Positions 27,048 through 64,000 of a stretch of 64,000 bases of DNA are shown in pieces (position 1 is the first letter of the stretch; every line of letters begins with the position of its first letter). The stretch covers positions 150,104,001-150,168,000 of the forward strand of contig CM059431.1 of assembly GCA_030390025.1 (NCBI GenBank), read 5' to 3'. Origin of the DNA: Squalus acanthias. Taxonomy: Eukaryota. A program made the translations under genes and the position numbers. A model generated the notes under the pieces. The model was not told the origin of the DNA. It ran no database searches and was given only the letters and a program-made list of their open reading frames with translations.

Positions 27048-27948
27048 TCATCCTTTAATGAATTTTACAATAAGAGTGAAGGGACATTTCCCCACATTCT
27101 ATAACTGCTCTCTGAATTTAGTCTGTGTCACGGCATAAATCCCAGTGTTTGTGCAGCAACTCAGCATCTGCAACAACAATCCCAATTCCCTTACATAAAA
27201 ACGTGCATAAACAGATTTAGACCCCAAATCCCTCATCCGGATCCATATATAATACATCATAATCACTGCCCACAACAGGATGAAATTGCCGGAGATAACA
27301 AGCAGTAAAATGATGGATTTCCTGCTGCTCTCCATCTCTGGGTCTTTGGGACTCTCCCTACTGCTGGGACCCCGGAGACTTCTGCGGGCTCTGCTGGACA
27401 ATAAAATGTGTCTGACGGTGAGAGCATTGAGCAGCAGAATCACGATAAATGTGACCCCGGGGTGAGAATATAATGAAGGAGCTCGATTGTCCCCCAGACC
27501 CATGAATACACAACATCCATTGTCACCTCACAAAACCAGGGGAGGTTCGCAAGCGGAAACCGATCTGTGAACATAAAATACCAGAAAATGTCCTTTGAAC
27601 CGCTTAGCACAGTCACTGTTCCCAGAACCACAGCCGCCGCATTCTCGGTGCAATATTTAGTTTTCAGCTTCTGGCGACAAATGGCCACTAATCGATCAAA
27701 AGTGAAAGTGACGCAGAACCAGACAGAACAGTCTGTGGCTGCATAAAGCAGGACGGCGTGGATATTACACACGGGGATGGACTCCACGAAACGAAACTGT
27801 TCCCTAAATACAATCGGAATCTGGCTCAATATCAGATCGAGGAGAAGGACCAGTAGATCCGCCGCTACCATTGCCACTAGGTAGCGAGTGACACATTTGG
27901 AGAGACCGCACTTTCCCCGAGACAGGATCACAATCGTAACTAAGTTCA
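27048..27948 (-). pseudogene. GPR139-like class A orphan GPCR, coding exon 2 (end of TM1 to C-terminus), disrupted as assembled
   Basis: Acceptor 'ttcccttcctcacag|TG AAC TTA' at 27948. Translation VNLVTIVILSRGKCGLS..YLVAMVAADLL..FTFDRLVAIC..PWFC..LLLNALTVRHIL..RKSIILLL..LSCCTNTGIY. 1-bp frameshift in the run at 27455-27458; TAG at 27099-27101 lies 16 codons before TGA at 27048. Confidence 0.88.
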
Positions 27949-29124
27949 CTGTGAGGAAGGGAAATAAACAGGGAAATTATACATCAGGCTGGGAGCAAGA
28001 GCAGCAGATAGAAGGAATTCTGGGAGAAATCTGCAACTCATCAGCGACATTCAATGATATAATCTAATTCTATTGCCCGTGTAGTTGAATACAGGGTTTA
28101 TTGTAAGAATAATCGGAAATGTATAGTGGAATTAAGAAATGAAACGGGGATAAATACAACATGAAAGTAACAGATGTTTGATCAATGAGAGATAAAATGG
28201 TAGATCTACCTTCAGCCCACCAGACAGAAGCACCACCCGAAGAACCAGTGACCCAAAGGACCAGAACCTCGGAGGAAGCCTTCGTGTCCCGGGATCAGTC
28301 AGCATTTGGAGCGGTGCAATTCGCTTCCCTGCCCCTGTGTTAGGGAGGGGGAAATCCCGCTTAGATTCCTGCTCCTGGTTAGAATATCCATTATATTTAG
28401 CACTGAAAATAAATGTAACGGCAAAATACAGTAACTGCAATCTTGGTGTGCAATAATTACAGGCAATTATATTTAAAATGCACGACTGTAATATGCAAGC
28501 GCTAAGATAATTAATACAATGGCACTGTAGTTATAAAGATAACTGGGCTGCAAGAAATGTTTTGAAGATTGAGCTTTCTATAGTTTTGTTGAAAGGCTCA
28601 AATTGTGGCTCATTGAACGGAAGATTTTACAAATAACATTGCAAGGAATAGATTCTGGATTAAAATATATAGTTATCATTGACCAGGTAATATCCCACTA
28701 AATGCTTGTATTAGCATCGTAATCAAGCGCCTCATCCCACAGTCAACGAGCCACCGAAGGCTTTCGTAAAGTATCTGAACACAAATGGAAGAGATTTTTC
28801 CTTGTATTTTTCACCTGTTGGTTTCCAAATTGTGCAGAGAATATTAGTCGAGAAAATATGAAATGATTTTCTTATCCTCAGTACTTCAGTTACAATCAGC
28901 TGGGATTGATTATCCTGCAGTACAGCAGGAGGCAATAGAGAATCACTCTGGTTCTCACTGAGAGATCCACTGAACTGTGACAGACAGGCACGGGACACAC
29001 TTGTAAATTCAAAACAAAATTGGTAATAAACGCATTGAAATATGGCTGACTGAACGTTTTTCGAGAATTTAAATTATCCGTGTAATCCTATTCTTACCAT
29101 CAGAAGCAGTATCACTAATGTAGA

Positions 29125-30502
29125 ACGAACTGGAGATGGGAGCAAACGAGACACTTACTGGAACTCAATGATTCGCGGATATTTCAGACATTTATAGATC
29201 AGTTTGTGATCTGTCAGGATTTGTTCCTGTGAATCTGTGTGAGTAACCATACCGACCATTCGTTGAAAACAAAAGCAAATTACTGAGGATGCTGGAAATC
29301 GAAAATAGAGCAGGAAATGTTTTAAATGCTCAGCAGGTCAGGCAGCATCTGTGGAGAGAGAGAGAGTTAACGTTTCAGGTCGATGACCTTTCGCCATTCA
29401 GTGAAAAGTCTCCTCAACCAAGACAACATTCTTCTGATCTGTTACAAATGTTCAGTGTAGATAGCAGAACGAAATTCGTTAAGCAAAGAGTCACGTGCAA
29501 TACTTTTTCTTGAGTTGCTTATACAACAATTGAATCTTGGTAATACCGTATCACCTTCAGAATCAATAGCCGACAGCAGTGCGCATGGGATGGAGAATGA
29601 CAAGGAGAGAAATACAGATAAACATGATTTATAGAATTCATAGCGGGATACAGAGACTTACCAGGAACACCAACAGTAGCGAGGATGTGCCAGTCTTTTT
29701 AAACAACTCTTGCATCAACAAAGATGCAAGAGCAGAGGGATCTGGGGGTTCATATCCACAGATCTCTGAAGGTTGCCACTCAAGTGGATAGAGCAGTAAA
29801 GAAGGCCTATGGTGTGTTGGCGTTTATTAACAGAGGGTTTGAGTTTAAGAACCGTGAGGTTATGCTGCAACTGTACAGGACCTTGGTGAGACCACATTTG
29901 GAATATTGTGTGCAGTTCTGGTCACCTCACTATAGGAAGGACGTGGAAGCATTGCAAAGAGTGCAAAGGAGATTTACCAGGATGCTGCCTGGTTTGGGGG
30001 GGAGGTCTTATGAGGAAAGATTGAGGGAGTTGGGGCTTTTCTCTTTAGAGCGGAGGAGGATGAGAGGCGACTTAATAGAGGTTTATAAGATGATGAGGGG
30101 GATAGATAGAGTGGATGTTCAGAGACTATTTCCTCGGGTAGAGGCAGCTGTTACAAGGGGGCATAACTATAAGGTGCATGGGGGGAGATATAGAAGGGAT
30201 GTCCGAGGTAGATTCTTTACTCAGAGAGTGGTTGGTGTGTGGAATGGACTGCCTGCTGTGATAGTGGAGTCGGACACTTTAGGAACTTTCAAGCGGTTAT
30301 TGGATAAGCACACGGAGCACACCAGAGTGATAGGGAGTGTGATAGCTTGATCTTGGTCTCGGACAATGCTCGGCACAACATCGAGGGCCGAAGGGCCTGC
30401 ACTGTGCTGTACTGTTCTATGTTCTATGTTAACTTGAAACACAGAATACCAGTAATCAATCAGTATACCACGGTAAATAGCAAGAATAATATTACAGTGT
30501 AA
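29125..30502 (-). repeat. Intron block of the minus-strand GPCR; inverted paralog of 63300-64000
   Basis: For example 'gcgaggatgtgccagtct.tttaaacaac', 'aaatagcaagaataatattacagtgtaa' and 'gcggatatttcagacattta' all match the reverse complement of 63300-64000. Confidence 0.9.
29728..30429 (+). mobile_element. Young 5'-truncated CR1, near-identical to the 3' part of 5724-8430
   Basis: ORF 29724-30350 repeats EQRDLGVHIHRSLK...FKRLLDKH almost exactly. Tail 'ttctatgttctatgtt'. Confidence 0.96.
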
Positions 30503-30504
30503 CA

Positions 30505-31582
30505 TGGGCCCAAAAATTAGTCCCGCGACGCGCGAGTACGCACTGTGTACTCTCGCGTATTCTGTCAACAATTGCCGGTTTTCCGCATGCACTGCGCATG
30601 CGCTGAAAACCGGCGCTTGGTTTTTGGAAAAGGGGGCGGTTCCTCGGTGCACCGCGTGCGCGCTACATGCTGCGCGCACGCTGTGCACTTAGTGCTTTGG
30701 ACGCGCAGGTAAGGACGGTAGATTTTAGAAATGAAAAAAGGAGGAGTAAGACCCACTTTTAACAAGGTAAGTAGTGAATTAAGTATTATTTTGAATTTTT
30801 TTAACATGTATATCTTTTTTAGAGACTTTAAAGACAGGTAAGTTTATTTTTATAACTTTTTAAAAGATTTTAAATTTTTTCAAAAATTTAATTTTTTATT
30901 TAAAATGGTTAATTTATTTAACTATTCTTATTTTATTAATGTGATGGTTTTAAAAAAAAAATAATTGAGGTTTAGCTGTTATTTTGGGGGTGTGTAAGAT
31001 TCATAGCTTTCACAGCACTCATGTGAAACTTATGAATGGAAGATGGTGTGCTGCCATTGGCTCTAACTGAGTCACGTGATCCCACAGCTCGCACGAATTC
31101 ACGACGCCGGTGGGATACGCAAGCACTGCCCAGCTGATGTCCAGAACATCAAGTTCGGACGAGCTGGGTCTGAAAAAGCCAACGCGGAGTGAGAGAACGC
31201 GGGGAAGCCTTACCCCCGCGTCAATACTCAGTCTTTAATTTGTGGGCCAGTATTAATGTGATGGCTTTTTTTTAAATGTAGTTGTGGTTTAGTTGTTCTT
31301 TTGGGGGTTTGTAGTATTCATAGCTTTGACAGCTCTTGCCGTCAAAACTATGAATGGAAGATGGCGTGCTGCCATTGGCTCTAACTGAATCACGTGATCC
31401 CAGAGCTCGCACGAACTAATTGCGCCTCTGGGTCACGCAAGCACTGCACGGTTCCAACAGAGAGAGCCTTTGAAACTAAAGTTCGTGTGGGGCCGGAGCA
31501 AAAACGTAGGCGCGGAGTGCGATATCGCGGGGAATCCTTACCCCAGTGTCAACCATACATGTTTAATTTCTGGGCCAGTATT
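30505..31582. mobile_element. Non-autonomous DNA transposon (MITE-like, probably Harbinger-related) with a tandemly duplicated right end
   Basis: Left end 'tgggcccaaaaatt' (30505). Inverted matches 'aatttgtgggcca' (31237-31249) and 'aatttctgggcca' (31565-31577). ~317-bp direct repeat starting at 30934 and 31251. Confidence 0.65.
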
Positions 31583-31799
31583 TCTCTAAATATGTGTGAT
31601 ATATTTATAGGCACATTTATTAATTGTTTTTGGAATCTTTCCTGGTTTCTCTCATTTCACCCTTGCGCACAGGGGGACGCTGTGACCCACCATGAGAAAG
31701 GGATTGAATGATGGGGATGTGGTGAACTACGGGGATCTCTGGTTTCCCTCATGCGTATCGGAGTCTGATGAGCTGGTCACAGACGGCCCATCCAGAAGG

Positions 31800-32937
31800 C
31801 CGATTGTCTCACTGCCTCCACACTCCCCCCTGTTCCTCTTGCTTCTCTTCCTCCGCCTCCTCGTCCTCCTCATCCTCGTCCTCTCCCTCGTCCTCCTGCT
31901 GAGGTGGTCCCGCAAAGCCTGCTGGCAAGGGCTGCGCTCTCATGAATACCAAATTGTGGAGCATGCAGCAGAACACCTCGAAATGGGATACCGGCTCAGC
32001 GTAGTACAGGAGGGCTCCTCCGGAGCGGCCAAGGCAGCAGAACCATTGCTTCAATAAGCCGAGGATCTGCTCGATGATGTTCCTGGTGGCAGCACGGCTC
32101 CCATTATATGAATGCTGAGCATGAATGTTGGAGTTGTGGAGAGGAGTCATTCGCAGGTGGAGAGCGGCTAGCCCTTGTCTCCGAGCGGCCAACCTGCAAC
32201 TTGACGTGATGGCTGAAAGAGTGCTGGCACACCGGTCTGGCGTTGGATGAAGGCAAAATGGCTGCAGCCAGGACTTGAGCATTGACATGGAGGATTCGCG
32301 GTATGTGATCGCACATCAAATGCACATTAAGTGATTGGTAGCCTTTGCTGTTACGGAAGATCTCAGGATTGTTATGCAGTGCTTGCAAAGCCACGTGGGT
32401 GCAGTCGATGGCGCCCTGCACCATGGGGAAACCCCCTCTCATGGCAAAGCAACATGCAAGCTCGTCATGCTTCTCTCTGGTGATCAGGAAGCCAATGTAA
32501 TCTTTTCTCCTGGTGTAGGGAGCCTCAGTTAGCTCCCGGATGCAGCGTTGAATGGCGAACTGTGCGATGTTAGCTATGTCTCCTGCTGCAGACTGGAAGG
32601 ATCCTCTGGCGAAGAAATTGAGGGCCACGGTGACCTTGACTGACACTGGGAGAACCGTGGTTGCCTTGGCTGAGGCTGGTGGTCTGGTTGCAGGAGGTGG
32701 GCGGAGTTCTGTGACCACCTCCTTGGTGAAACGAATTCTCCGAACACACTGCTCCTCGCCTAATTGAAGGTAGGAGCACTGATGTCGGAAGACCCTGGGA
32801 TGGTAAGGCCTCCGCTTGAGATCCCTGATAGCCCTCCTCCTCCTCCCTCTGCGCACATTGTCCCGTCTTTTTCGCTGCCTCCGCTCCCTCCGCCTTAGAT
32901 GCTGGAGTGCGAGCTCGACTGTCAGTACAGTCCCCAT
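31800..32937 (-). mobile_element. PIF/Harbinger (HARBI1-like) DDE transposase, frameshifted remnant
   Basis: ORF 32104-32937 'KVTVALNFFARGSFQ..GD..GFPMVQGAIDCTHV..FRNSKGYQSLNV..CD'. ORF 31809-32288 'MTPL..YN..TRNIIEQILGLLK..CCMLHN' followed by an acidic tail. Confidence 0.92.
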
Positions 32938-33317
32938 GACTTACAGCAAGTACTGCAGTTTGAAGCGCCTCAAAATTGATGAGGAAGTGTTTTACCTGCC
33001 GGAATACTCCCTGATACTAAATAAACTTGAAATAACTGAAGACAGCTCTTGCAGTTGCAGGAAGTAGCACACAGACACTCAAACTGGAAAACCCTGTCAG
33101 GGGCGAGTTTTTGGTGAGTATCACTTTAAATTTTATCGCTGGAGCCGGCATCCTGCACATTGTGGAGGAGTCCAACTCGCTTGGCATGCTGGGAGATGTA
33201 GCTCCGTTTTCGTCACAACAACACCCGGAGCAACATAGTTAATTAAATAAATCTGGAATAAAAAACTGGTATCAGTAATGGTGACATGAAACTATCGGAT
33301 TTTTATGAAATCCCCAT

Positions 33318-33900: not shown

Positions 33901-33902
33901 AG

Positions 33903-48444: not shown

Positions 48445-51285
48445 ATCACAGAATCATACAGCACAGAAGCAGGCCATTCAGTCCATCGAGCCTGTGCCGG
48501 CTCTTTGAAAGAGCTATTCAATTAGTTCCCCTCCCCTGTTCTTTCCCCATAGTCCTGCAAGTCCCTCACTTCCAGTATTGATCCCGTTCCCTTTTGAAAG
48601 TTATTGTTCAATCTGCTTCTATCACCTTTTCAGGCAGTGCATTCCCGATCATAACAACTCGCTGCGTCGATCAAATTCTCCTCATCATCACTGTGATTAT
48701 TTTCCCAATTATCATATATCTGTGTCTTCTGGTTACCGGCCCTTCTGCCAGTAGAAATATTTCCTCCTTATTTACTCTATCAAACCCGTCATAATTTTGA
48801 ACATCATCAGTATATCTCCCTTTTATATTGCGGGATCGCTGGAGAACAATTCCAGCTTCTCTTGTCTCTCCGCATAAGTTAAGTCCCTCATCCTTGAAAA
48901 CGTTCCACTAAATCTGTTGTGTGCCCACTCCAGGACCTTGACATCCTTCCTAAAGCTGCCAAGAATTGGACACAACACTCCAGCCGGGGCCTAACCAGAG
49001 ATTTATGAAGGCTCAGCATACATTCCTTGCTCCTGTTCCCTGCCTCTATTGATCAATCTAAGGTTTCCATGCGTTTTTTTAACAATCTTGTCAACTTGTC
49101 CTGCCATCTTCAAAGGCTTGTGTACGTAAACTCCCAGGTGTCCTTTTCCTGCACCCCCTTTAAAATTGTACAATTTCGTTTGTATTGCCGCTACACATTT
49201 TCCTCCAAGATTTATCCTTCACACCTCTCTTAATTAAATTTCACCTGTCTTTTTTCATTTTCATTAATTCCTGGGATGTGGCCTTTGCTGGCACGGCCAG
49301 CAATTATTGTCCATCTCTAATTGCCCTTGAGAAGGTGGAGTTGAGACAATTTCTTGAAATTCTGCAGTCCGTGAGGCGAAGATTCTCCCACAGGGCTGTT
49401 ACGGAGAGAGTTGCAGGTTTTTCACCCAGCGACGATGAAGGAACGGCGATATATTTCCAAGGCAGGAAGGTGTGTGACTTGGAAGGAAACTTGCAGGTGG
49501 TGATGTTTCCATGCGCCTGCTGCCCTTGCCCTTCTAGGTAGTAGACTTCGCGGATTTGGTAGGCGCTTTTGAAGAAGCCTTGGCGAGTTGCTGCCGTGCG
49601 TCTTGTAGCTGGTACACACTGCAGCCACGGTACGCCAGTGGTGTAGGGAGTGAATATTTAAGGTGGTGCATGAGGTTCCAATCAAAGCTGGTGCTTAGTC
49701 CTGCATGATGTCGAGCTTCTTGAGAGTTTTTGGACCTTCACTCATCCAGACAAATTGAGAGTATTCCATCACACTCCTGACTTGTGCCTTGTAGATGGTG
49801 GAAAGGCTATGGGTTGACAGCAGGTGAGACAGTCACGTCATAATATCTAGTTCTGACCCACTCTTGTAGCCACAGTTTTTATGTGGCTGGTCCCGTTAAG
49901 TTTCTGTTGAATGATGATTCTCAGGATATTGATGGTGGGGGATTTGGCGATGGTAATTGAATTGAATGTCAAGGGGAGGTGGCTCTTGTTGCAGATCATC
50001 ATTGACTGGCACTTGTGTGGTGCGAGTGTTACTTGCCACTTATTAGCCCAAGCCTGAAAGTCGTCCAGTTCTTGCTGCATGCGGGCACGGACTGCTTCTT
50101 TATCTGATGAGTTGCGTATTGAAGTGAACACTGGAATCGTAAGCGAACATCCCGAGTTCTGACCTTATGATGGAGGGAAGGTTATTGATGGAGCAGCTGA
50201 AGGTGGTTGGGTCTCGGACACTGCCCTGAGGAACACATGCTGCGTTGCTCTGTGGCTGTGATGATTGGCCTGCAACAACCTTTGTGCTAGGTATGACTCG
50301 TGCCAGTGGAGAGCAACCCCCCTGATTCCCATTGACTTCAATTTTACGAGGTCCCTTTGATGTCACTCTCAGTCAAATGCTGCCTTGAATTCAAGGGCAG
50401 CCATTCTTACCTCACCTCTGGAATTCAGCTCCTTTGTCCATGTTTGGACCAAGGCGGTAATGAGATCAGGAGCTGAGTGGTCCGGTTGGAACTCAAACTG
50501 AGCGTCGTTGAGCAAGTTATTGTTGAGTAAATGCCACTCAATAGCACTGTCGACGACACCTTTTATCACTTTTATCATTTTACCAGTCTATGTCCTACTG
50601 AAGCCAACTACTATCCCTCTCAGTGTTTACTATATTTCCGAGTTTCAGGTCATCAGCAAACTTGAAATTATGCTCTTCATATATATATATAGGTCTATAT
50701 CATTAATATCTATCAAAAAAAACTGTGGTCCTAATAGCGAACCCTGGGGGACACCATTGTATATTTCCCTCCAGTCTGAAAAACAAAAAGTCACCACTAC
50801 TCTCTGTTTTCTGTACATTAGACAATCTCAGATCCCCGCTGACATTGTTCCTTTGATTCTAACATGTTTATTGAATGGCACTTTATCAAATGCCTGTTTT
50901 AAAGTCCACATGCACAACATGAACCGCACAACGCTCATGAACCCACTTCGTTAATTCATCAAACAAGTCAATCAAGATTGTCAGACGCATTTTGCCGTTA
51001 ACATATCTGTGCTGGTTGTCACTTATTAATCCATGTTTTTTCCTAGTGACAGATATTTTTTCCGGGAATATGGCCTCCAGAGGTTTCCCCACAACATTCG
51101 CTAGGCTGACTCGCCTGTAGTTATTGGATTTATCATTCTCTCCTTTTTTAAACAGGATGTAACACCTGCAACCCTACAATTCTCTGGCACCAGTCCCATA
51201 TTCAAGGAGGATTGAAGGATTCTGGAAAATTTTTGCGCTATTTCCATCATTCCTTCCCTCAGCAACCCTCATACATCCCAATCGG
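48445..51285 (-). mobile_element. Old CR1 (48445-49250 and 50575-51285) interrupted by LINE family B
   Basis: Tail 'atcacagaatcatacagcac'; RT motifs 'SDNQHRYVNGK..LTILIDLFDELT' on the far side of the insert. Confidence 0.8.
49255..50575 (-). mobile_element. LINE family B (CR1/L2-group, distinct from the main CR1), RT domain and 3' end
   Basis: ORFs 'NNLLNDAQFEF..HSAPD..AALEFKAAFD', 'VPQGSVRDP..INNL..MFAYD' and 'WANKWQVTLAPHKCQ'. Confidence 0.85.
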
Positions 51286-51612
51286 ACTGCAGAAATGTTC
51301 TCCTTTACTGTGGTACAAAGCGTGCGTGATTGAAAGGGGCTAACTGAAGCTGTTTGCTCACTGACTGGATTTAATGTCAGTCTCCATGGGTTAACTGAAG
51401 CTGTCCTTTCAGTGAATGTAATAAATGTCAGTCTCCATGGACACTAATTGCATCAATGCAGTGTTTCCTTCTTCTATTAATAAGGGATTCAATTCAATAT
51501 GTTATCACATAGTGTCAGTGAGAGCATTACCACCGGCACTAACAGGGATCAGCGCGCTGCTCCACAGAGAGGGAGTCGGAATCTAAGAACAATAGATTGG
51601 AATGTTAAAGCA

Positions 51613-51793
51613 ATGGATCAGAATCTGAGAACAGTAGATTGGAATGTTACAACAATGGGCAAGAGTTTCAGCTGGGATATTATCTATCTTTCTGCATCTT
51701 ATGATAGATTATCATTTAGTTCCCGGTTCTATTTCGCACTAAAGATTGTTCAATACTTTTACTACCCGCTCCTTGCTGCTGTTGGTGTTCCTG
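51613..51793 (+). CDS. GPR139-like class A orphan GPCR, coding exon 1 (N-terminus and start of TM1); exon 2 outside the window
   Basis: MDQNLRTVDWNVTTMGKSFSW...IVQYFYYPLLAAVGVP-G|GTAAGT, with an N-glycosylation sequon (NVT). The phase-1 donor at 51794 fits the phase of the exon-2 acceptor type seen at 27948 (G+TG = Val of GVPVN). An upstream in-frame ATG exists at 51499. Confidence 0.85.
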
Positions 51794-52019
51794 GTAAGTC
51801 TGTCTCTCCAGCTATTCTATTAACCATGTTTAACTGCATTACTGTTCTTGTCATTTACTCTCCCCTCCTTGTTGTTTTTGTTGTTCCCGGTAAGTCTCTG
51901 TATCCAACTCTTAACTCTGCAAACATTTGCTAACTGCATTAATGCTCTTGTAATTTACTCTCTCATCTTTGCCCTGTTAAGTCTCGATATCCAGCAATTA
52001 GATCTGTAATCCTCTGACT

Positions 52020-52320
52020 CACCACCTCCACAATTTCACCCGTCTCCGCCCCGTCTCAACCATTCTGCTGCATTAACCCCATTTGTTAAATCCAGAACCG
52101 ACTATTCCAATGCTTTCCTGGCCGGCCTCCCAGTTACAAGCCTCCATAAACTAGAGCTCATCCAAAACTCTGCTGTCCATATCCTAACACGCATCATGTC
52201 CCGTTAACGCATCAGTCATGTGTTCGCTGACCTAGATATGCACCCGATCTTGCAACACCTCGAGCTTAATAGTCTCCTCCTTGTGTTCATATCCCACCAT
52301 GGCCTCACCCCTCCAAATTA
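52020..52320 (+). mobile_element. L2-type LINE fragment (related pieces at ~47720-47790 + and ~55960-56100 -)
   Basis: 'gactattccaatgctttcctggccggcctccc...aaactagagctcatccaaaactctgctg' encodes a DYSNA.LAGLP..KLELIQNSA motif typical of the L2 ORF2 C-terminus. Confidence 0.7.
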
Positions 52321-52904
52321 GTCCAATTCCCGTGCTCTTTTCCCATAGTACTGAACATTAGAAACATAGAAACTAGGAGCAGGATTGTTCCCCTTCAAGT
52401 ATTTATCCAATTCCCCTTTTGAAGGTAATTTATTTTCCTCTGTAAATCTCCCAGTTTTTCAGTCGTTATTTTTATTTCTCTATTGCTCTTTATCTCTCTC
52501 CCTCCTCTCTCTGTCTCTCTTTTGTTTCGTGCTCATAGAATCATAAAATGCTGCAGCACAGAATGAGGCCATTCGACCCATCGTATTCTTGCCGTCCCTT
52601 TGAAAGAGCTGTCTAATTAGCCTAATCTTTAGCCAGAGCCCAGTAAAAATGCACCCTTCAACTAAGAATCGAATTCCCTGTCGAAACTATATAATTTGCT
52701 TGCATCACGTTCTCAGACAATTCCTTCCAGATCACAACAACTCACTGCATAAAGAAAACTCCCCTCATATCTTCTCTGTTTTTTTTTGCAAATTACCCTA
52801 AATCTGTGAACGCTGGTTTCCCATCATTTTGCCACTGGAAACAGTTTCGACTTATGCTCTCGATCAAAACCCATCATGATTTTTATCATCATTACTAAAT
52901 CTCC

Positions 52905-55005
52905 CATTATGTTAAAGGACAAAGATAGAACATGTGTATAAGTTCTCAATTGCACAAAGGTTAATTTTACTAAGCTGCGATGTAATTCAGCAAAAGTGGA
53001 TTGGAAACAGTTACTTTAAGGGAAATCAGTGGCAGCAGTGTGAAGCATTCAAGAAGGTGGTAGTGAGGGTTCGGAGCAAATATGTTTCCACAAAGAATTA
53101 GGATGAAAATCCAATTCTAGAGTCCCCTGGATGTCAAGGAAAATACAGATTAAGATAAGAAGAAAAAGGGAAGCAAATGACAGATACCGGGTGCTCAATA
53201 CTACAGACAGCCCAGAGGAGTGTAGAAAGTGCAGGGGTGAAATTAAAAATGAAATTAGGAAGGCAAAGAAAGGGCATGAAAAATATTGCCAAGGTGATTT
53301 TGTGACTGGAAGACTGTTTCCACTGCGAATCCGCAGAGCTCCGTTGTAGGTCCCCTGCCTTTTGTTGTATATACGAATGATCAATATTTCAATGCTGAGG
53401 CCTTGATTAAGAAGTTTGTAGATGATACAAAAATTGGCCGTGTGATTGATAGTGAGGAAGATAGTTGTAAACTGCAGAAAGATATCAATGGATTGGTCAG
53501 ATGGGCATAAAAGTGGCAAATGGAATTCAATCCAGAGAAGTGTGAGGTGATGCATTTGGGAAGGGTTAACAAGGCAAGGGATACACAATAAATGCTAGGT
53601 TAATGAGAAGTGCAGAGGAACAGAGGGAACTTGGAGTGCATGTCCGCAGATCCCTAAAAGTAGAAGGACATGTAGATGGGGAGGTTAAGAAGGCATATGG
53701 GATTATTTGCTTTATTTGCCGAGGCATAGAACATAAGAGCAGGGAAGTTATGCTGGAACTGTATAAAACACGTTAGTTCAAAGCTAAGAATACTGCATAC
53801 ATTTCTGGTCACCACATTACAGGAAAGATGTGACTTCACTCGATAGTTTACAGAGGAGAATCACGAGGATGTTGCCAGGACTGGAGAATTTTAGCGATGA
53901 GGAAATATTGGATAGGCTGGGGCTGTTACTTTGGTACAGAGGAGGCTGAGCGGAGATTTAATGAAGAAGTATAAATTTATGAGCGGCATCGATAGAGTGG
54001 ATAGACAGCATCAATTTCTCTGAGCAGAGCGGTCAATAATCAGCAGGCATAGTGTTAAATGTAATTGGTAGATGGATTAGTGGGGAGATGAGGAGATTTT
54101 TTTTCACCCAGATGGCGGAGCTGCAAAGTTGGATTAGGCTGGATAGCTGTTTCAATCGACGCACACACGATGAGCCGAATGGCCTACTTCTGTGCCGAAA
54201 ATTTCTATGATTCCATCTTTCTGTTTCTTAACCTTACCTGCTCTAAAATGAACAATCCCTGCTTCGCCAGTCTCTCCACGTAACTGACGTCCCAGATCGC
54301 TGGAAAATTTCTTGTAAATCCCTACACCTTCTCTAATCATTGACATGCTTCCCAAAGTGTGGCGCCCAGAATTGGCCACAAAGCTCCAGCTGGGGCTTAA
54401 CCAGTGATTTATAAAATATTAGCATTTCATCCTGGATTTTGTTACATTGTGTCTCTGTTTGTAAACCCAAGGACTCAGTATGTTCTTTTAATTGCCGTTG
54501 TATCTTGTCCTGCCACCTTCACAGATTTGTGTAAGTACAGCCCAGGTCACACTGATCGTACATGCGCTTTAAAATTGTACCATTTAGTTTAAATTGCCTT
54601 GCTCATATCTCCTACCAAACTGTATCACTTCACCCTTCTCTGTGTTAAATTGTATCTGCCATGCATCTGCCCATCACACCAGTCTGTCTGTGTCCTCTTC
54701 AAGAATGTTGCTACACTTCTGATTGTTTATTAACATTGCTGACATTGCTGACATCAGCAAGCTTTTAAATTATGCGTTGAATACCCACGTCTGTGGCATT
54801 CACGTACAGGAAAAGAGCAATGCCCCCAACAAGGACCCCTGGTGAACAACACTGTATACTTCCATCCAGTCTGAAAAACAACCGTTTACCACTACTCTCT
54901 GCATTCTGTCACTTAGCCAAAATCCGAGCCAGGTTGCCACTGCCGCTTTAATCACTTGGACTTCAATTTTGTTTTCATGTGATACTTCATCAAACACCTT
55001 TTGAA
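52905..55005. mobile_element. Two decayed CR1 copies: plus 52905-54190 (internally deleted near 53293) and minus 54225-55005
   Basis: CR1 motifs 'aagtttgtagatgatacaaaaattgg', 'aagtgtgaggtgatgcattt' and ORF 'MQRVVVNGCFSDW..VHQGSLLG'. Confidence 0.82.
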
Positions 55006-55321
55006 AGGATAGCGAAATTGGGAAAGTATGGGCAGTGGCAATCAGAGAATCATAGAATTGGTGAACCAAGTTGTGTTGACGCCCCGCTCTGATCACAGGC
55101 CTCATTCCCATTTTATTGTTTGTTTTAATTTATTCTCAGGATATTGTAAAGCTTTCAAGGCAGGTATTACTTGCCCATTACTAAATACCCATGAGAAAAT
55201 GGTGGACTTTCATCTTGAACCACTGCAGTCCGTGTAGTGAAGGTGCCCCCACAAAACGGTTAGGGAAGGAATTTTATGCTTTTGATCCAGTGACGATGAA
55301 GGAATGGCGATATGTTTGAAG

Positions 55322-55720
55322 GGTACGGTAGCATAGTAGTTATGTTGCTGGACTAGTAAACCAGATACCTGGACAAATGATCCAAGGTCCACCAGCTGGG
55401 GAATTTAAATTAAATTAATTAAACAATTCAGGAAGAAAAAGCGATTGTTGATAATGGTGAGCATGACACTACCAGATTGTCATAAAACCAATCTGGTTCA
55501 CTAATGGTATTTAGGGAAGAAAACCTGCTGTCCTTATTCATTCTGGACGAAATGTGACTCCAGACCCACAGCAAAGTGCTTGAGTATTAACTGCTCCTCT
55601 GAAATGCCCTAGCAAGCCTCTCAGTTGTATACGCTGGCTCATCATAACCTTATCAATGTCAGTTAGTGAAGTGAATTAAATGCTGGCCTTGCCAGCGACG
55701 CCCACATCCCAAGAATGATC
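55322..55720 (+). mobile_element. tRNA-type SINE sharing its 3' tail with LINE family B
   Basis: Head 'ggtagcatagtagttatgttgctggactagtaa', body 'gattgtcataaaccaatctggttcactaatg', tail 'taaatgctggccttgccagcgacgcccacatccc'. Confidence 0.72.
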
Positions 55721-56281
55721 TGTTTAAGTCCATTTCTGGATGCTGTGTGAGTTGAAGGGAGTAATTGGAGGTGATGGTCTTTTGAACTACAGTCTGACCG
55801 AATTCTACCCCCTCGCCTGTGCCTCCTCCCTCGAATGCCATTTGTAGGAATCCAGCTGCAGCCCTGCGGGTGAAAGGTACTTACGGTTAAATACTAAACA
55901 GAAACAATGTATCGTTTGGCATTTTAGGGATACAAGTCATTTACTGGACCCTTGGCAATGATTTGGGGCTGAACACGAGGATGAAAATCTTAAAATCGAG
56001 GCATTGCCGATCCGTGAGACAATTTAAGTCAGCGAGCACAGGGGTGCTGGGTGAACGGGACTTGGTGCGAGTTATGAAAAGGACAGCAGAATTTTGGATC
56101 AGAAAGAAATTATTGTTATTAATTTTAGATATAACGTTATATCTCCGCACCACTGAAGCATCTGTCACGAAAGATAACAAATGACACTGAATGGGTTCAA
56201 GCTGACACTTTGAGAGGCAAATTCTAAGCCCAATTCGTCAACACGCTGTGACATTTGATATGTGCCGAATTCGGAAGACAA

Positions 56282-57842
56282 GGGCCGAGAAATTCGTCTC
56301 TGGCGGCTGCGCTAAATTTGTGCTGCCGCTAAACGGGCGGTATTGGATCATAAGAACATAAGAATTAGGAGCAGCAGGAGACCATTTGGCCCTTCGACCC
56401 TGCTCCGCCATTCAATTTGATCATGGCTGATCTTGTATCTCATCTCCACTTTCTTACACTATCTCCATATCCCTTGATTGCCTTAATATTCAAAAATCTA
56501 TCGAACTCTGTCTTGAATATACTCAACGTCTGATCCTCCACAGCCCTCTGGGATAGTGAATTCCAAAATTCACCATCCTCTGAGTGAATAAATGTACCTC
56601 ATCTAAATTCTAATTGGACGAAAACTTATTCTGAGACTGTGACCCCTGGGTCTAGATTTCCCAGCCAGGGGAAACATACTCTGTGCATCTACCCTGCCAA
56701 ACCCTTTAAGAAATGTGCGTGTTTCAATGAGATCACCTGTCATTCTTCTAAACTCTAGAGAATATAGGCGTAGTTTACTCAATCACTCCTCATAGGTCAA
56801 TCCCCAATCCCAGGAACCTGTCTGGTGAACCTTCTTTGAACTCCATCAATGACAAGTATATCCTTCATTAGTTAAGAAGACCAAAACTGCACACAACATT
56901 CCAGGTATGGTCTCGCCAGGGCTCTATATAATTGCCGTATGACGTCTTTACTCTTATACAGGAATCCTCTTGTTTTCAAGGCAACATACCGTTTGCTTTC
57001 CTAAATGGTTGCTGTACCTTCATGTTAACTTTCAGTGATTCGTTTACAAGGACACCCAGGTCCCTCTGAACAGCAACATTTCCCAATCTCACACCATTTC
57101 AAAAATGCTCTGCATTTCAAATTTTCCTACCAAAGTGGATAACATCATATTTCTCCACGTTGTATTCTATTTGCCATGTTCTTGTCCAATCACTTAGCCT
57201 ATATATATCCCCTTGAAGCCTTTTTGCATCCTCCTCACAACTTACATTCCCACACAGCTTTGAATTACCAGCAAACATGGATATAATACATTTGGTCCCC
57301 TTATCCAAATCATTGACGCAGATTATTAATAGCTGAGGCCAAGCACTAATCCTTGCGGTTCCCCAATAATTACAGCCTGGCAACAGGACATTGACCCGTT
57401 TATTCTTACAATTTGATTTCTGTCCGTTAACCAATCCTGAATCCAGGCTAGTATATTATCCCCAATCTAATCAGAATTAATTTGTTTAATAATCTTTTGT
57501 TTGGCACTTTATCGAATGCCTTCTGAAAATCCAAATACACCGCATCCATGGTCCCCTTATCTATACCGCTAGTTACAATCTCAAGATCTGTCAAACACAA
57601 TTTCTCTTTTATAAATCCGTTTTTACGCTAGCCAATTCTATTATAATATTCAAAGTGCCCTGTTATGAAGTCCTTAATAATAGATTCAAGCATTTCCCTA
57701 ATACTGATGTCAGGCTAACTGGTCAGTAGCTCCCGTTTTCTCTCTCACTCCTTTCTTAAATAGTGGGGTTACATCTGTTACCTTCGTTACACGCAGCTTC
57801 TGATATTGAGTTCCACCGCAGTCAATTAAGGATTTCTAGGCC
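56282..57842. mobile_element. MITE-like element (GGCC.AGAAAT TIRs) carrying a nested minus-strand CR1 (56348-57785)
   Basis: 'gggccgagaaatt' at 56282 and 'gatttctaggcc' at 57831-57842 flank a CR1 with tail 'cataagaacataagaa' and RT motifs (ORF 57117-57434). Confidence 0.7.
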
Positions 57843-58039
57843 AAGGTCTTCAATTCTTAACACCAATATTCCAGCAGAGGTTTCTCCGTAACTCTTTGAA
57901 GCCACTTTTTTGTCAAAGAACTAGTCTCAGTAATCCTGCAACATCAGCACCCCTGTGGTCCCAAACCGCATGGTTCACTTTTAAAAAAAAACAAAATCCA
58001 TTCCGGATCTTCTTAACATTCAATGGACATCTAAACAAG

Positions 58040-59625
58040 AGGGAGGAGCCACAGCCAGTGTCACAGAAACATTCATAATGGCTTTTTAAAGAGACTACCA
58101 GTAAAACAGGTTTTCTAAAGAGACAAGACCAGTCAGGCTTTTTAAAGAGAGAGCACCAGCGACACAGGCTTTTTAATGGACAGAACACTTCAAACAGGCT
58201 GTGTTAAGAGACAGGACCAGTCACACGGGCGCTTTAAGGAGACAGGACCAGTCACACAGCCTTTTTAAAGAGAGAGGAGCAGTCACACATGCTTTTAAAA
58301 GAGACTGGACCTGTCTCTCAATAATTTTAACAGAAAAGTCGAATCACACATGGTATTTAAAGAAAAAGAACCGGTGACACAGGCTTTCATAGAATCATAG
58401 AATGGTTACAGCAGGGATGAAGAAAATTCGGACCGTCGAGCCCACGTCGGCTCTCTGCAAAAGCACGTAAGCTAGTCCCACTCCCCCGCTGTTTCCCTCT
58501 GCATTATTTTCATTCAGGTACTTATCTAACTCCCTTTTGAAACCATTGATTAAGCCCGCCTTCACCAGCATTTTAGGCAGTGAATTCCAGATCCTAACCA
58601 CTCCTTGCGTAAAAAGTTTTTTTTTCTGATGTCTCCTTTGGTTCTTTTGCCAATCACCTTAAATCTGTGTCCTCTGGTCCTCGACCATTTGCCAATGGGA
58701 ACAGTTTATCTCTATCTGTTCTGTCCAGACCCATTGTGATTTGAACACCGCTATCAAATCTCCTCTCAAACTTTTCTGCTCCAAGGAGAACAACGCCAGC
58801 TTCTCCAATCTATCTACGTACCTGAAGTCCCCTATCCCTGGAATCATTCTCGTAAATCTTTTTTGCACCCTCTCAAAGGTCTTCACATCCATCCTGAAGT
58901 GCGGTGCAAAGAATTGGACACAATAAGCCAGTTGAGGCCAAACCAGTGTTTTATACTTGTTCATTATAATTTCCACGCTTTTGTACTCTATACCTCTATC
59001 CATGAAGCACAGGATCCTGTAAGCTTTTTTAACTGCTCTCTCAAACAGTCCGGCCAACTTTAATGATTTGTGCACATATAATCCGTCGGTCTCTCTGTTC
59101 ATGCATCCCCTTTAGGATTGTATGCTTTAGTTTATATTTCCTCTCCTCATTCTTTCTACCAAGATGTATCACTTCGCTTTTTTCTGCGTTAAATTTAATC
59201 TGCCACCTGCCCGCCCATTCCACAAGCCTATCTATTTCCTCTTGAATTCTATCGCTATCCTACTCTCTGTTTACTATACTTTTGAAAGACACAGGACCAG
59301 TCACACAGATTTTTTAATGACATAATCAGACATACAGGATTATTAAACAGACAGAACCAGTCACACAGATTTTTAAAGAACCAGCACTAGTCAGACAGGC
59401 TTTATAAAGAGACATGACCAGTCACACAGGCTTTGAAAGAATCAACACGAGTAACACAGGCTTTTAAAGAGACATAATCAGTCACACAGACTTTTCAAAG
59501 ATACATGGCCAGTCACTCAGGCTTTTTAAACAGACAAGACCAGTCATTCAGGCTTATTAAACAGACATGACCAATGTCACAGGTTTTTAAATGATAAAGG
59601 ACCAGTTACACAGGCTTTTCAAAGA
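58040..59625 (+). repeat. ~31-33-bp minisatellite split by a minus-strand CR1 (58388-59280)
   Basis: 'ttttaaagagacaggaccagtcacacaggc' units on both sides of the CR1 (ORF 58659-59102). Confidence 0.88.
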
Positions 59626-59647
59626 GAAAAAAATGACATAAGCAAAA

Positions 59648-59714
59648 GGGCCGAGAAATTCCTTCTCGGGCGACGGCACATAACAGCTTTTTTATTATCG
59701 GAAATTCTAGGCCC
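59648..59714. mobile_element. Minimal ~67-bp TIR element of the same MITE family
   Basis: 'gggccgagaaatt'...'aattctaggccc'. Confidence 0.55.
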
Positions 59715-59834
59715 CCATATCTGTCCTTACAGATTATTGGACCATTAATGTTCGTTCACAAATTCTAATCTGGTCCTGAATATGACCCCTTTCAAGCTGC
59801 TTATTTTGCAGACTATTAATTTTAATATGTTTAA

Positions 59835-60280
59835 TTCATGGATGTTGGAAATGCTGGCAATTCCAGCCAATCACTAATTGTCCTTGAGGAGGTGATGCTC
59901 TAATAATACCTTGAACCGCTGCAGTCCTTGTGGTGAAGATACTGCCCAGAGTCTCACTTTTGTACAACTGAGTGTCTTGCCAGGCCATTTCAGAGTGCAG
60001 GGCCGTGTCAGAGTGCAATTAAGATTCTACCGCATATGTGCAGCCCAACTAAGGATGGCAGGTTTCCATCCTTAAAGAATGTTATCGAACCAGTTGGCTT
60101 TTTTCTTGACAATCCTGTAGTTTCATGATCTGCATTACTGATACTAGATTTTAATTCCAAATGTATTTAATTAATTGATTTTAACTTCCCCAGCTGTCGA
60201 GGTGGGATTGAACTCAAGTCTCATAGTTTATTACTCCATGTCTCTGGGTTACTGGTCCAGTAACATAAACACGATGCTGA
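59835..60280 (-). mobile_element. LINE B tail and a second copy of the 55322-type SINE
   Basis: Reverse matches 'acaactgag..cttgccaggccatttcagag', 'gaaccagttgg....ttgacaatcc' and 'ttactggtccagtaacataa'. Confidence 0.65.
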
Positions 60281-60817
60281 TGTATTTGGTGTCTACAGAT
60301 AGTAACCCATAACACTATTGACTTCTAGGTGTTTGAGATGCTTTAGGGATTCAGGAGGTGAGTTTCTCACCGCAGAATATCCAGCCTCTGACCTGCTGTA
60401 GCAGCCAAGGCATTCATGTGGCTGGTCTAGTTGATTTTCCGATCAATGTCGACCACTCGGTTTTTGATGGTGGAGGGTTTGGTGATTGCAATGCCAATGA
60501 CTGTCAAGTATAAATTATCTCTTGCTGGATGTGGTCATCGTCGGGCGCTTGTGTGGAGAGAATTTATCTTTAATGACACCAGGGATGTGGGATTTCAGTT
60601 ATGTGGAGAAACTGGAGAAGCAGGGATTCTTCGCCGTGGAGCAGCGAATTCTAGGGGGAGATTGAATACAAGTGCTCAAAATGTTGAGTGTTTATAAACA
60701 ATAATTAAAGAGAAACTGTTTCCACTGGCTGACCTGTCATTACCAAAAGGACGAACCCCGATCACGCAATGAGATAATCTGGAATGAGCTCTCTGAAAGG
60801 CAGCTGGAAGCAAATTC

Positions 60818-62812
60818 AATCGGTTCAGTAGGTAGCAAACTCGCTTCTGAGTCAGAAGGTTGTGGGTTCAAATCCCATTCCAGCGACGTTAGTCCAAAGA
60901 TCGAGGCTGAAACTCCCGTGCAGTACTGAGGAAGCACGGCATTGTCAGTGGGGCCGTAAGAAGGGTGCGCTGAACTGTCGGAGGGTCAGTACTGATAGAC
61001 CACTGCACTCTCGGAGGATCAGTACTGAGCGAGCGCTGCACTGTCGCAGGGTCAGTACTGAGCGAGCGCTGCACTGTCGGAGGGTCAGTACTGAGGGAGC
61101 GCTACACGGTCGGAGGTTCAGTACTGAGGGTGCGCTGCACTGTCGGAGGGTCAGTAGTGAGAGAGCGCTGCAGTGTCGGAGTGTCAGTACTGAGGGAGCG
61201 CTACACTGTCGGATGTTCAGTATTGAGCGAACGCTGCACTGTCGGAGGGTCAGTACTGAGCGAGCGCTGCACTGTCGGAGGATCAGTACTGAGCGAGCGC
61301 TGCACTGTCGGAGGGTCAGTACTGAGGGAGCGCTACACGGTCGGAGGTTCAGTACTGAGGGTGCGCTGCACTGTCGGAGGGTCAGTAGTGAGAGAGCGCT
61401 GCAGTGTCGGAGTGTCAGTACTGAGGGAGCGCTACACTGTCGGAGGATCAGTACTGAGCGAGCGCTGCACTGTCGGAGGGTCAGTACTGAGGGAGCGCTA
61501 CACGGTCGGAGGTTCAGTACTGAGGGTGCGCTGCACTGTCGGAGGGTCAGTAGTGAGAGAGCGCTGCAGTGTCGGAGTGTCAGTACTGAGGGAGCGCTAC
61601 ACTGTCGGATGTTCAGTATTGAGCGAACGCTGCACTGTCGGAGGGTCAGTACTGAGCGAGCGCTGCACTGTCGGAGGATCAGTACTGAGCGAGCGCTGCA
61701 CTGTCGGAGGGTCAGTACTGAGGGAGCGCTACACGGTCGGAGGTTCAGTACTGAGGGTGCGCTGCACTGTCGGAGGGTCAGTAGTGAGAGAGCGCTGCAG
61801 TGTCGGAGTGTCAGTACTGAGGGAGCGCTACACTGTCGGATGTTCAGTATTGAGCGAACGCTGCACTGTCGGAGGGTCAGTACTGAGCGAGCGCTGCACT
61901 GTCGGAGGTTCAGTATTGAGGGAGCGCTATGCTGCCGGAGGGGCAGTACTGAGGGAGCGCTGCACTGACGGAGGGTCAGTACGGATCGAGCGCTGCACTG
62001 TCGGAGGGTCAGTACGGAGCGAGTGCTGCACTGTCGGAGGATCAGTACTAAGGGTGCGCTGCACTGTCGGAGGTTCAGTACTGAGCGGGTGCTGCACTGT
62101 CGGAGGTTCAGTACTGAGGGAGGGCTACACTGCCGGAGGTTCAGTACTGAGGGAGAGCTGCACTGTCGGAGGTTAGGTACTGAGGGTGCGCTGCACTGTC
62201 AGAGGGGCAGTGCTGAGGGAACGCTGCACTGTCAAATGGACAGTATTGAGGGAGAACTGTATTGTCGAAGGGGCAAAAGTGAGTGAGCGCTGCACTTTCG
62301 GAGGTGCAGAATTGAGGGAGCCCTGCACTGTCGGAACGGCAGTGCTGTGGGAACGCTGCACTTTCGGATGGTCAGTACTGAGGGGGAACTGTATTGTCGA
62401 AGGGGAAAAACTGAGCGGGCGCTGCACTGTTGGAGTTGCACTATTGAGGGAGCGCTGCCCTGTCGGAAGTGCAATACTGTTGGAGTACTGTCTTGTCGGA
62501 GAGGCCTTCTTTCGGATGCGATTTTAAACCAAAGCCATGTCTGCTCTCTCTCAGCTGGAAGTAAATGATCCGAGGGCACCATTCGAAGAAGACCAGCGGG
62601 GTTTTCCCCAGTGTTCTGGCCAATATTTATCTCAATCAACATCACTAAAACAGATGACCTGGTCGTTATTGCAATGCTGTTTGTGGCAACTTGCTGTGCA
62701 CAAACTGGATGCCTTGTTTCCTACAGTACAACACTGACTTCACTTCAAAAGTACTTCGTTGGCTGTGCAGTGCTTTTGGGATATCCCAAGTTCGTGAAAG
62801 GCGCTCTTTCTT
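60818..62812 (+). mobile_element. tRNA-headed SINE with a Deu-domain-like core, expanded by an internal satellite
   Basis: Head with A/B boxes ('cggttcagtagg', 'ggttcaaatccc'). After the array: 'ctttcggatgcgattttaaaccaaag..gatccgagggcacc..ccccagtgttctggccaat' (Deu-domain-like, from memory of the AmnSINE1/SacSINE1 consensus) and an L2-like tail 'gcttttgggat..gtgaaaggcgct'. Confidence 0.72.
60918..62500 (+). repeat. 33-bp satellite (~45-48 units) with higher-order repeat structure
   Basis: Unit 'gcactgtcggagggtcagtactgagcgagcgct'; diagnostic variant 'cacggtcgga' at 61105, 61336, 61501 and 61732. Confidence 0.95.
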
Positions 62813-62924
62813 AGCAGTAAGTTTCAAAAGGTAATTCGATATCTAATAGAAAAGGAGACATTTTCAGGACTATGAGGAAACTGTTTAATTGTTCACTACC
62901 ATTCACGAAAGGTTTATGACTGCT

Positions 62925-63230
62925 TTGAAATAATCTGATCGGTTGCCTGAAGATGTGCTGATTCATCAGCAGAATGATGTCGGTAGATAGTAATCAGCAG
63001 GAAGTTACCTTGCCCATGTCTGAATGGAAGCCGCGATACTTCATTATGTCCGTAAGCAAATTTGAAGCCTCGCAGGATCTCTCCCAGTCGACTGTATATC
63101 CATGTGCCCCCACATTTGGTGAGTCTGTACTGCCGGTGGAACAGGATATGCCCTGAGATGGTGATGGAGGAGTCGGGAATGTTGACTGATAGGAATGGTT
63201 CTGTGACTTTGATTGTGCGTGAATGCAATG
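62925..63230 (-). mobile_element. LINE APE-endonuclease fragment (probably family B)
   Basis: 'TEPFLS..PDSSITISGHILFHRQYR..GG..GNFLLITIYR' APE-like motifs. Confidence 0.7.
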
Positions 63231-63239
63231 TTTCCAGAG

Positions 63240-64000
63240 CGTTTCTATCCCCTTCTTGCTGCTGTTAGTGTTTCTTGTAAGTATTTATATCCAGTTATTA
63301 ATTATATAGATCACATTACACTGTAATATTATTCTTGCTATTTCTCGTTCTTTACTCAGTTATTAATGGTATCGTGTGTTTCAAGTTGTTGCATTTTGTT
63401 AATGCAAGAGTTGTTGTTTAAATAGACTGGCACATCCTCGCTGCTATTGGTGATACTGGCAAGTCTCTGTATCCAACGATTAATTATATAAATCATGTTT
63501 TATTGTATTACTGTTCTTGTCATAATCCATACCATCCCCACTGCTGTCGGCTGTTGATTCTGAAGGTGATACTGTGTTACCAAGATTATTTTTTTCTGTA
63601 TTCAACTCACGAAATGATATTGGACGATACTCTTTGCTAAACGAATTTCGTTCTACTATCTGCACTGAACATTTATAACAGATCAGCAGAATATTGTCTT
63701 GATTGAGGAGAGTTTTCAGCAAATGGCGGAAGAACATCACCCTGTAACGTTAACTCTCTCTCTCTCTCCACAGATGATTTCTGACCTGTTGAGTATTTAA
63801 AGCATTTTCAATTCTTTTTTCAGATTTTCCAGCAACCGCAGAAATTTGCTTTTGTTTTCAGCGAATGCTCGGTATGTTTACTGACACAGTGTCACAGGAA
63901 CAAATCCTGACAGATCACACCCACATCTTTAAATGTCTGAAATATCCGCTAATCATTCAGTTCCAGTCAGTGTCTCCTTTCCCACCATATACAGCTCTGC
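63240..64000 (+). repeat. 3' part of intron 1 of the plus-strand GPCR: degenerate exon-1/donor units and block paralogous to 29125-30502
   Basis: 'ccccttcttgctgctgttagtgtttctt|gtaagt' (~63250-63283) and 'cctcgctgctattggtgatactg|gcaagtctctgtatcc' (~63436-63475) resemble 51765-51810. Confidence 0.85.

What the first reader, a model, noticed from the sequence alone, without database searches (positions are those of the whole stretch)
27048..64000. One GPCR exon 1 lying between two oppositely oriented intron/exon-2 modules
Seen: a GPR139-like exon 2 on the minus strand (27048-27948); its upstream intron block (29125-30502) recurs inverted at 63300-64000; the only recognisable exon 1 is on the plus strand at 51613-51793. 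I could not find a minus-strand exon 1 between 30.5 and 51 kb. Inference: a second exon 2 should begin roughly 1-1.5 kb beyond the right edge. The simplest explanation is an old inverted duplication that left an orphan exon 2. The speculative alternative is that inverting the 30.5-63.3 kb segment would attach the same promoter/exon 1 to the other receptor body, i.e. an inversion-based receptor switch or polymorphism in an expanded chondrichthyan GPCR family. The arms are visibly diverged, which argues against frequent somatic flipping.
Basis: partly seen in the sequence, partly recalled or inferred. Interest (0 to 1): 0.72.

Follow-up and report, generated by a model that had tools for sequence, protein, structure and literature searches.

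The report
Headless broken shark receptor gene copy
The two 'inverted arms' are the shared start of an intron in two copies of a large shark receptor family, and the copy that lacks its first exon is also broken, so this looks like ordinary gene birth and death, not a DNA-flipping switch.

Summary
The coordinates hold. There is a 7-TM exon 2 on the minus strand (27048-27948), one complete exon 1 (51613-51793, +) and an inverted block (29127-30502 against 63316-63997).

The switch reading fails on four counts:
(1) The minus exon 2 has a 1-nt frameshift near 27455-27460 and a stop at 27099. It departs from 14 of 153 conserved columns, against a homologue median of 4.
(2) The arms are 85% identical with a longest perfect run of 28 nt. 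One arm is split by a young CR1-type insertion, and no convincing recombination signal was found.
(3) The block is not a private pair. Public contigs show further copies of it and of the whole intron, and other inverted repeat pairs of similar size lie in the window.
(4) The block is the start of intron 1, made of ~90-nt copies of the exon-1 end and donor. The minus copy stops at 30502-30507, where a transposon-like element begins about 34-39 nt short of the donor position seen in paralogues.

Best reading: a 5'-truncated, decaying pseudogene facing a plus-strand paralogue whose exon 2 probably starts near 65.2 kb (not testable here). The family is a large shark GPR139-like expansion (1393 proteins). 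Ordinary.

The parts
27048..27948 (-). Exon 2 of a GPR139-like 7-TM receptor pseudogene; 1-nt frameshift near 27455-27460, premature TAG at 27099-27101, 16 codons before the normal stop at 27048-27050
   Evidence: 125 of 126 proteins hit it in two frames; 14 of 153 conserved columns differ; 3 of 113 homologues have as many; paralogous contigs carry one extra base at 27454-27457
27949..29126 (-). 3' part of intron 1 of the pseudogene; single-copy in the window but covered by paralogous contigs
   Evidence: (no self-hit), tables 3 and 8
29127..29729 (-). Arm, main part: 5' part of intron 1, with a donor unit (GTAAGT at 29661) and a highly repeated segment at about 29230-29490 (SINE-like, by recall)
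   Evidence: (table 2)
29730..30430 (+). 701-nt CR1-type LINE 3' fragment inserted in the minus arm; 691 of 701 bases identical to the CR1 copy near 7730-8430, so young
   Evidence: joint 29729->30431 in 3 contigs of X1 and 4 of X5
30431..30502 (-). Arm, first part: sequence just downstream of a lost exon-1 end/donor unit
   Evidence: table 5c joint 30507->29656 with 28 letters of donor-unit sequence between
30507..31578 (.). Highly repeated MITE-like element with imperfect terminal inverted repeats (30507 vs 31237-31250 and 31565-31578); sits where the exon-1 donor and upstream sequence of the minus gene would be
   Evidence: (very high depth from 30537, loose ends before 30507 in X19 and X20)
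31809..32940 (-). Broken PIF/Harbinger-type DDE transposase
   Evidence: (DDE_Tnp_4, E 0.0075 and 0.00014, both below the curated cut-off)
51337..51612 (+). Probable promoter and 5' UTR of the plus gene (51-bp duplication at 51337-51440, TATA-like word at 51474); function inferred
51613..51793 (+). The only complete exon 1 (60 codons + 1 nt; DWNVTT repeats and first half of TM1); GTAAGT donor at 51794
   Evidence: 86 of 126 proteins hit it, up to 65% identity
51794..52010 (+). Tandem ~90-96-nt copies of the exon-1 end and donor; second donor at 51890, in frame
52010..63240 (.). LINE fragments and satellites (72% covered by self-hits; 33-bp array at 60921-62467); no receptor exon
63243..63458 (+). 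Two further exon-1 end/donor units; donors degenerate (T|GTAAGT at 63277, G|GCAAGT at 63459); no long exon 1 or promoter upstream
63316..63997 (+). Plus arm: 5' part of intron 1, cut by the window edge; exon 2 predicted near 65,176 (inferred, not seen)

Best explanation
Two paralogues of a large two-exon shark GPR139-like receptor family lie in opposite orientation. All copies share a recognisable intron 1, so any two oppositely oriented copies give 'inverted arms' (shown: further copies exist). The minus copy has no exon 1 or promoter in the window (shown). Its homology ends at a MITE/Harbinger block, so loss at or beside that insertion is the likely cause (inferred; a 5'-truncated duplication is equally possible). 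It then decayed by a frameshift, an early stop, changes at conserved residues and a late CR1 insertion (lesions shown; their order inferred). The plus gene probably splices exon 1 (51613-51793) over an intron of about 13.4 kb, swollen by repeats, to an exon 2 near 65.2 kb (inferred). No DNA inversion is needed or indicated.
For: Frameshift and stop; 14 of 153 conserved columns changed against a median of 4 in 113 homologues. Family size 1393 of 2389 candidates at E<=1e-3; the 120 listed all carry shark or ray source names. Contigs of 4 of 4 runs cover all 30 bins of 27000-30900. Of 8 variant letters listed in the arm, 3 match neither arm. Joints show copies without the CR1 piece, copies with tandem donor units (back 63 and 80 nt), and a copy whose donor lies about 34 nt upstream of 30507 with letters that differ from the plus arm (the plus arm has 39 nt from donor to the point matching 30502). 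Arms 85% identical, longest perfect run 28 nt, against 134-232 bp in mouse cells and 300-500 bp in human meiosis (PMC2583991, passages). Of 5 inverted pairs of at least 300 nt flanking exon 1, 4 are LINE pairs; another 83% / 501-nt pair flanks the minus exon 2.
Against: Exon 2 beyond 64 kb was not seen. The frameshift is a single base and was not confirmed in reads of this exact copy, since one search gave contigs only, so an assembly error is possible. The stop lies only 16 codons from the end, after the last helix, and may not inactivate alone. 5 of the 8 arm variants match the plus arm, so part of the contig signal may come from that copy. The same review notes NAHR through matches under 50 bp at alpha-globin, so rare recombination is not impossible. 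Orientation was not tested in long reads.
Confidence: 0.85

Rival explanations
1. Three gene remnants. The unit at 63243-63277 is the decapitated exon 1 of a separate plus-strand gene, and exon 1 at 51613 lost its own exon 2. It is then an orphan too, or has been captured by the next body downstream. This is a variant of the best reading and is also ordinary.
For: After its donor units, the intron behind 51794 (52000-53500) does not resemble either arm (scores 25 and 29 against shuffle maxima 30 and 27). The unit at 63277 sits at the same distance from the arm start as the donor in a paralogous contig.
Against: No promoter or long exon 1 lies upstream of 63243. Donor units occur as tandem arrays in the window and in paralogous contigs, so one array split by 11 kb of repeats explains it as well.
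Confidence: 0.3
2. One ancient, fixed inversion by recombination between two opposite paralogues moved exon 1 from the minus body to the plus body. The abandoned body then decayed.
For: The geometry allows it: exon 1 lies between the arms and its phase fits the minus exon 2. P0009, 80% identical to the first exon-2 piece, has an exon 1 of the same type.
Against: One exon 1 is missing in either orientation, so a loss is needed anyway and the inversion adds a step. The arms differ along their whole length. The family is too uniform to pair this exon 1 with either body.
Confidence: 0.08
3. A live inversion switch or inversion polymorphism lets one promoter and exon 1 drive either of two receptor bodies.
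For: Geometry and matching exon phase only.
Against: Second body frameshifted and degenerate. Arms 85% identical, 28-nt longest match, one arm split by CR1. No RSS-like site near the arms. Arm sequence is multi-copy.
Confidence: 0.02

Closest known systems
Shark proteins annotated 'probable G-protein coupled receptor 139' (e.g. XP_067832456.1 and XP_067833419.1, Heptranchias perlo)
   Same: Exon 2 up to 74% identical over its length; exon 1 up to 65% identical with the same DWNVTT repeats; same junction position in TM1.
   Different: The minus copy is frameshifted and has no exon 1. No listed protein exceeds 80% identity. The name is an automatic best-hit label.
Human GPR139 (PDB 7vug, 9m42)
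   Same: Best solved-structure match for the family profile (E 2e-15) and for P0009 (E 2.4e-11).
   Different: A distant match only (44 bits over about 300 residues). The shark family has over a thousand database members, and orthology and ligand were not tested.
Birth-and-death evolution of clustered GPCR families such as olfactory and vomeronasal receptors (recalled, not tested)
   Same: Many paralogues in mixed orientation, pseudogenes, truncated copies, repeat-rich spacers.
   Different: Two-exon genes with a conserved intron, which makes inverted paralogues look like invertible cassettes.
NAHR inversions between inverted low-copy repeats (PMC2583991, passages read)
   Same: Inverted homologous blocks flank a segment.
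   Different: Arms are about 0.7 kb, 85% identical, with a 28-nt longest perfect run, far below the quoted efficient lengths.
Programmed inversion switches: Salmonella Hin, E. coli fim, Mu Gin, inversional V(D)J joining (recalled)
   Same: One promoter or 5' part could in principle be joined to two bodies.
   Different: No conserved recombination sites, no recombinase found in the window, and the second body is broken.

Membership tests
Shark GPR139-like rhodopsin-class expansion | 7tm_1 domain and high identity to family members | tested here: met
Shark GPR139-like rhodopsin-class expansion | Exon junction in TM1, phase 1 | tested here: met
Shark GPR139-like rhodopsin-class expansion | Intact reading frame in the minus copy (functional member) | tested here: not met
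   frameshift near 27455-27460 and TAG at 27099 in this assembly
Shark GPR139-like rhodopsin-class expansion | Intact exon 2 for the plus gene | not testable with these tools
   beyond the window edge; no genome held
True GPR139 orthologues | Orthology by tree and synteny | not tested
   only a distant best hit
NAHR-driven recurrent inversion | Inverted homologous repeats flanking the segment | tested here: met
NAHR-driven recurrent inversion | Uninterrupted identity of roughly 130-500 bp | tested here: not met
   longest run 28 nt; thresholds from PMC2583991
NAHR-driven recurrent inversion | Both orientations present in reads or haplotypes | tested here: inconclusive
   contigs only, one arm only, 15 joint rows shown and 89 not shown
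Programmed inversion switch | Recombinase sites at the arms (RSS heptamer-12/23-nonamer tested; motif recalled) | tested here: not met
   one weak match in 64 kb, at 46039, 3 mismatches; other recombinase sites not tested
Programmed inversion switch | Two functional alternative bodies | tested here: not met
   minus body broken; plus body unseen
PIF/Harbinger transposon (30507-33230) | DDE_Tnp_4 transposase, terminal inverted repeats, 3-nt target duplication | tested here: inconclusive
   Pfam hits below cut-off; imperfect TIR-like ends around 30507-31578 only, no clear target duplication

The most novel reading that the evidence does not exclude
In some individuals or cells the minus exon 2 is intact (the frameshift being an assembly error or one allele), and the 30.5-63.3 kb segment occurs in both orientations. 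One promoter and exon 1 would then be joined to either of two receptor bodies: receptor choice by DNA inversion in a vertebrate GPCR family.
Probability: 0.02. Interest if true: 0.9.

Novelty: new member of a known kind. Interest (0 to 1): 0.13.

Why it matters
As found, it matters little: one more truncated pseudogene in a large receptor cluster. It is a useful caution for this scan, because the family keeps a recognisable intron 1 and any two opposite copies will mimic an invertible cassette. The family itself may deserve study: it has over a thousand database proteins from sharks and rays, and seven literature searches listed no paper whose title or abstract opening describes the expansion. 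That is a separate question from this finding. A real inversion switch would be a new way of choosing a GPCR in vertebrates.

Tried and rejected
No whole genome is held, so the window could not be extended.

The look-up of sequencing runs: no RNA holder listed; this is no evidence on expression. X19 and X20 are only guessed to be RNA and cover intron and exon alike, so nothing is concluded on transcription. No strand-change joint appears among the 15 joint rows shown, with 89 more not shown; only one arm was laid, as contigs, so this is not a test of inversion. Summed depth was not used as copy number.

Scans of metagenome and viral contigs with alignment A2 gave 40 and 36 pattern matches, none confirmed, so no paralogous genomic locus could be read whole. 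Rfam found nothing in 26000-64000. The frames upstream of 63243 gave no credible Pfam hit and no homologue among 40 candidates; that 400-nt stretch is unidentified.

tblastn hits of family proteins elsewhere in the window (42.3, 49.7, 51.2 kb and LINE regions) came from 1-3 proteins each with atypical N-termini and were rejected as repeat-derived parts of automatic gene models. A minus-strand exon 1 on the far side of the transposon block was looked for and not found.

Earlier-findings look-ups gave nothing. Paper searches on the family listed nothing on it; passages of PMC6504862 and PMC12294341 do not treat it; one search listed nothing. The library lacks most subscription journals, and no supplements were read.
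Full report
Observation. The minus-strand exon at 27048-27948 follows a pyrimidine tract and CAG, and its two pieces match Pfam 7tm_1 at E 5e-8 and 5.8e-5. The plus-strand exon at 51613-51793 is 181 nt, ends in phase 1 at GTAAGT and encodes a 60-residue N-terminus with DWNVTT repeats. The inverted homology is real but comes in two pieces: 29127-29729 against 63997-63389 (83.4%, 610 columns) and 30431-30502 against 63387-63316 (84.7%, 72 columns). It runs to within three bases of the window end, so it is cut by the edge. Collinearity puts a plus-strand acceptor near 65,176. This could not be checked, as no genome is held.

Family. The first exon-2 piece finds 1393 proteins at E<=0.001 among 2389 candidates. 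The 120 listed come from Heptranchias, Heterodontus, Pristiophorus, Pristis and Carcharodon, most named 'probable G-protein coupled receptor 139', at 70-80% identity. Exon 1 finds 6 proteins among 14 candidates, 5 with the same name, and hits 86 of the 126 fetched proteins. Human GPR139 is the best solved-structure match but a distant one. An earlier finding of this scan (e1-7939187; an AI note, not evidence) reports hundreds of members in the same genome.

Only one complete exon 1. An HMM from 95 canonical exon-1 tails (110 of 126 proteins could be split at the junction; 15 with atypical tails were dropped) scores 83 bits at 51643-51792. The next scores are 9.1 at 63243-63275 and 7.1 at 51826-51888; the short-tail model gives 6.8 at 29686-29663 on the minus strand. 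Exon 1, its promoter and the sequence upstream of 63300 align to minus 30503-51200 no better than 12 shuffles do. No other exon 2 lies in the window.

What the arm is. The arm begins with copies of the last codons of exon 1 plus the donor. Such units lie at 51794, 51890, about 51980, 63277, 63459 and minus 29661, and five of them are 67-82% identical to each other. The arm is therefore the 5' part of intron 1. The minus arm stops at 30502, 39 nt downstream of where the unit-A donor lies in the plus arm. At 30507 a highly repeated element with imperfect terminal inverted repeats begins, followed by a broken DDE_Tnp_4-like frame at 31809-32940. A contig in run X1 joins 30507 through 28 letters of donor-unit sequence to an exon-end unit (table 5c), and those letters differ from the plus arm (compared by eye). 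So at least one further copy keeps the donor that the minus gene has lost.

The arm is multi-copy. Contigs of all 4 runs laid cover all 30 bins of 27000-30900 at 80% likeness or more. At intron sites outside the arm, which are single-copy in the window, tens of contigs carry other letters, for example 53 and 28 contigs at 28328. Listed pieces bridge exon 2 and the intron. Of 8 variant letters listed inside the arm, 5 equal the plus arm and 3 equal neither arm. Three contigs in X1 and four in X5 skip 29730-30430, and others show tandem donor units. Contigs are short and their number is not a copy number; X1 may be the source sample and is not independent.

The minus exon 2 is broken. It changes frame near 27455-27460, where paralogous contigs carry one more base, and it has TAG at 27099-27101. 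Read with X at the break, it differs at 14 of 153 columns that are at least 90% conserved among 113 homologues (13 of 126 were left out by length or motif; one of the 14 is the break itself). The median is 4, and 3 of 113 reach 14 or more. This points to lost constraint beyond one possible assembly error, but the frameshift was not confirmed in reads of this copy. The CR1-type piece in its intron is 691 of 701 identical to another copy in the window, far younger than the split between the arms (K2P 0.17).

Could it flip? The arms match at 511 of 601 aligned bases, with a longest perfect run of 28 nt. PMC2583991 (passages read) gives a 20-fold fall in recombination when the run drops from 232 to 134 bp in mouse cells, and 300-500 bp for human meiosis. 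It also notes events through matches under 50 bp at alpha-globin. These are mammalian figures. One weak RSS-like match exists in the window, at 46039 (motif recalled). The pair is not special here: 4 of 5 inverted pairs of 300 nt or more that flank exon 1 are LINE pairs at 70-77%, and a 501-nt pair at 82.8% flanks the minus exon 2. Flipping would join exon 1 to a frameshifted body.

Mechanism. Shown: two opposite paralogous intron starts, one complete exon 1, a headless and damaged minus copy, a transposon-like block at its truncation point, and further family copies. Inferred: loss of the minus gene's exon 1 and promoter at or beside that block, or a truncated duplication; decay afterwards; and splicing of the plus exon 1 across about 13.4 kb to an exon 2 near 65.2 kb. 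Whether the 63277 unit belongs to the same gene as exon 1 or to a second, decapitated gene is open (about 30% for the latter) and does not change the verdict.

Novelty. This is a new pseudogene member of a known kind of cluster. Seven searches (listings only, plus passages of PMC6504862 and PMC12294341) showed no paper on this shark expansion. The library is limited, so this is not proof of absence, and it does not raise the interest of this locus. Interest 0.13; live switch 0.02.

Noticed in passing
window 51794-51890 (+): The second donor unit lies 96 nt after the exon-1 donor, in frame and without a stop, so using it would add 32 codons with a repeated half of TM1. Its peptide matches the N-terminus of the Heptranchias model P0020 at 11 of 15 residues, so such units may be old and could act as alternative donors or short first exons.
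   Followed up: partly
window 44800-51340: No 26-bp satellite array was found upstream of this promoter, unlike the cassette described in earlier finding e1-7939187; a 67-bp array lies at 44799-45779. A 52-bp array lies at 23586-24958, downstream of the minus exon 2.
   Followed up: partly
window 5646-8430 (+): Long CR1-type LINE with endonuclease and reverse transcriptase in two frames, one frameshift near 7300; same young family as the piece at 29730-30430.
   Followed up: partly
window 18200-18705 (-): C2H2 zinc-finger array fragment, 84-bp period, apparently broken.
   Followed up: no
window 14850-15350 and 43238-43736: Inverted pair of an unidentified repeat of about 500 nt, 82.8% identical, no credible Pfam match.
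   Followed up: partly
window 45800-47974: 2.2-kb stretch with no second copy in the window, containing a (TCTCA)n run and an AATAAA near its right end; possibly an LTR-type insertion (guess); its longest frame has no Pfam match.
   Followed up: partly
window 62840-63240: Unidentified sequence directly upstream of the 63243 unit; two minus frames of 116 and 96 codons without homologue or credible Pfam match.
   Followed up: yes
window 1-15000: Mostly degenerate TC-rich arrays alternating with CR1 3' fragments.
   Followed up: no
window 27809 (table 4): Some paralogous contigs in X1 and X5 lack one base here relative to the window, so other family copies are probably frameshifted too.
   Followed up: no
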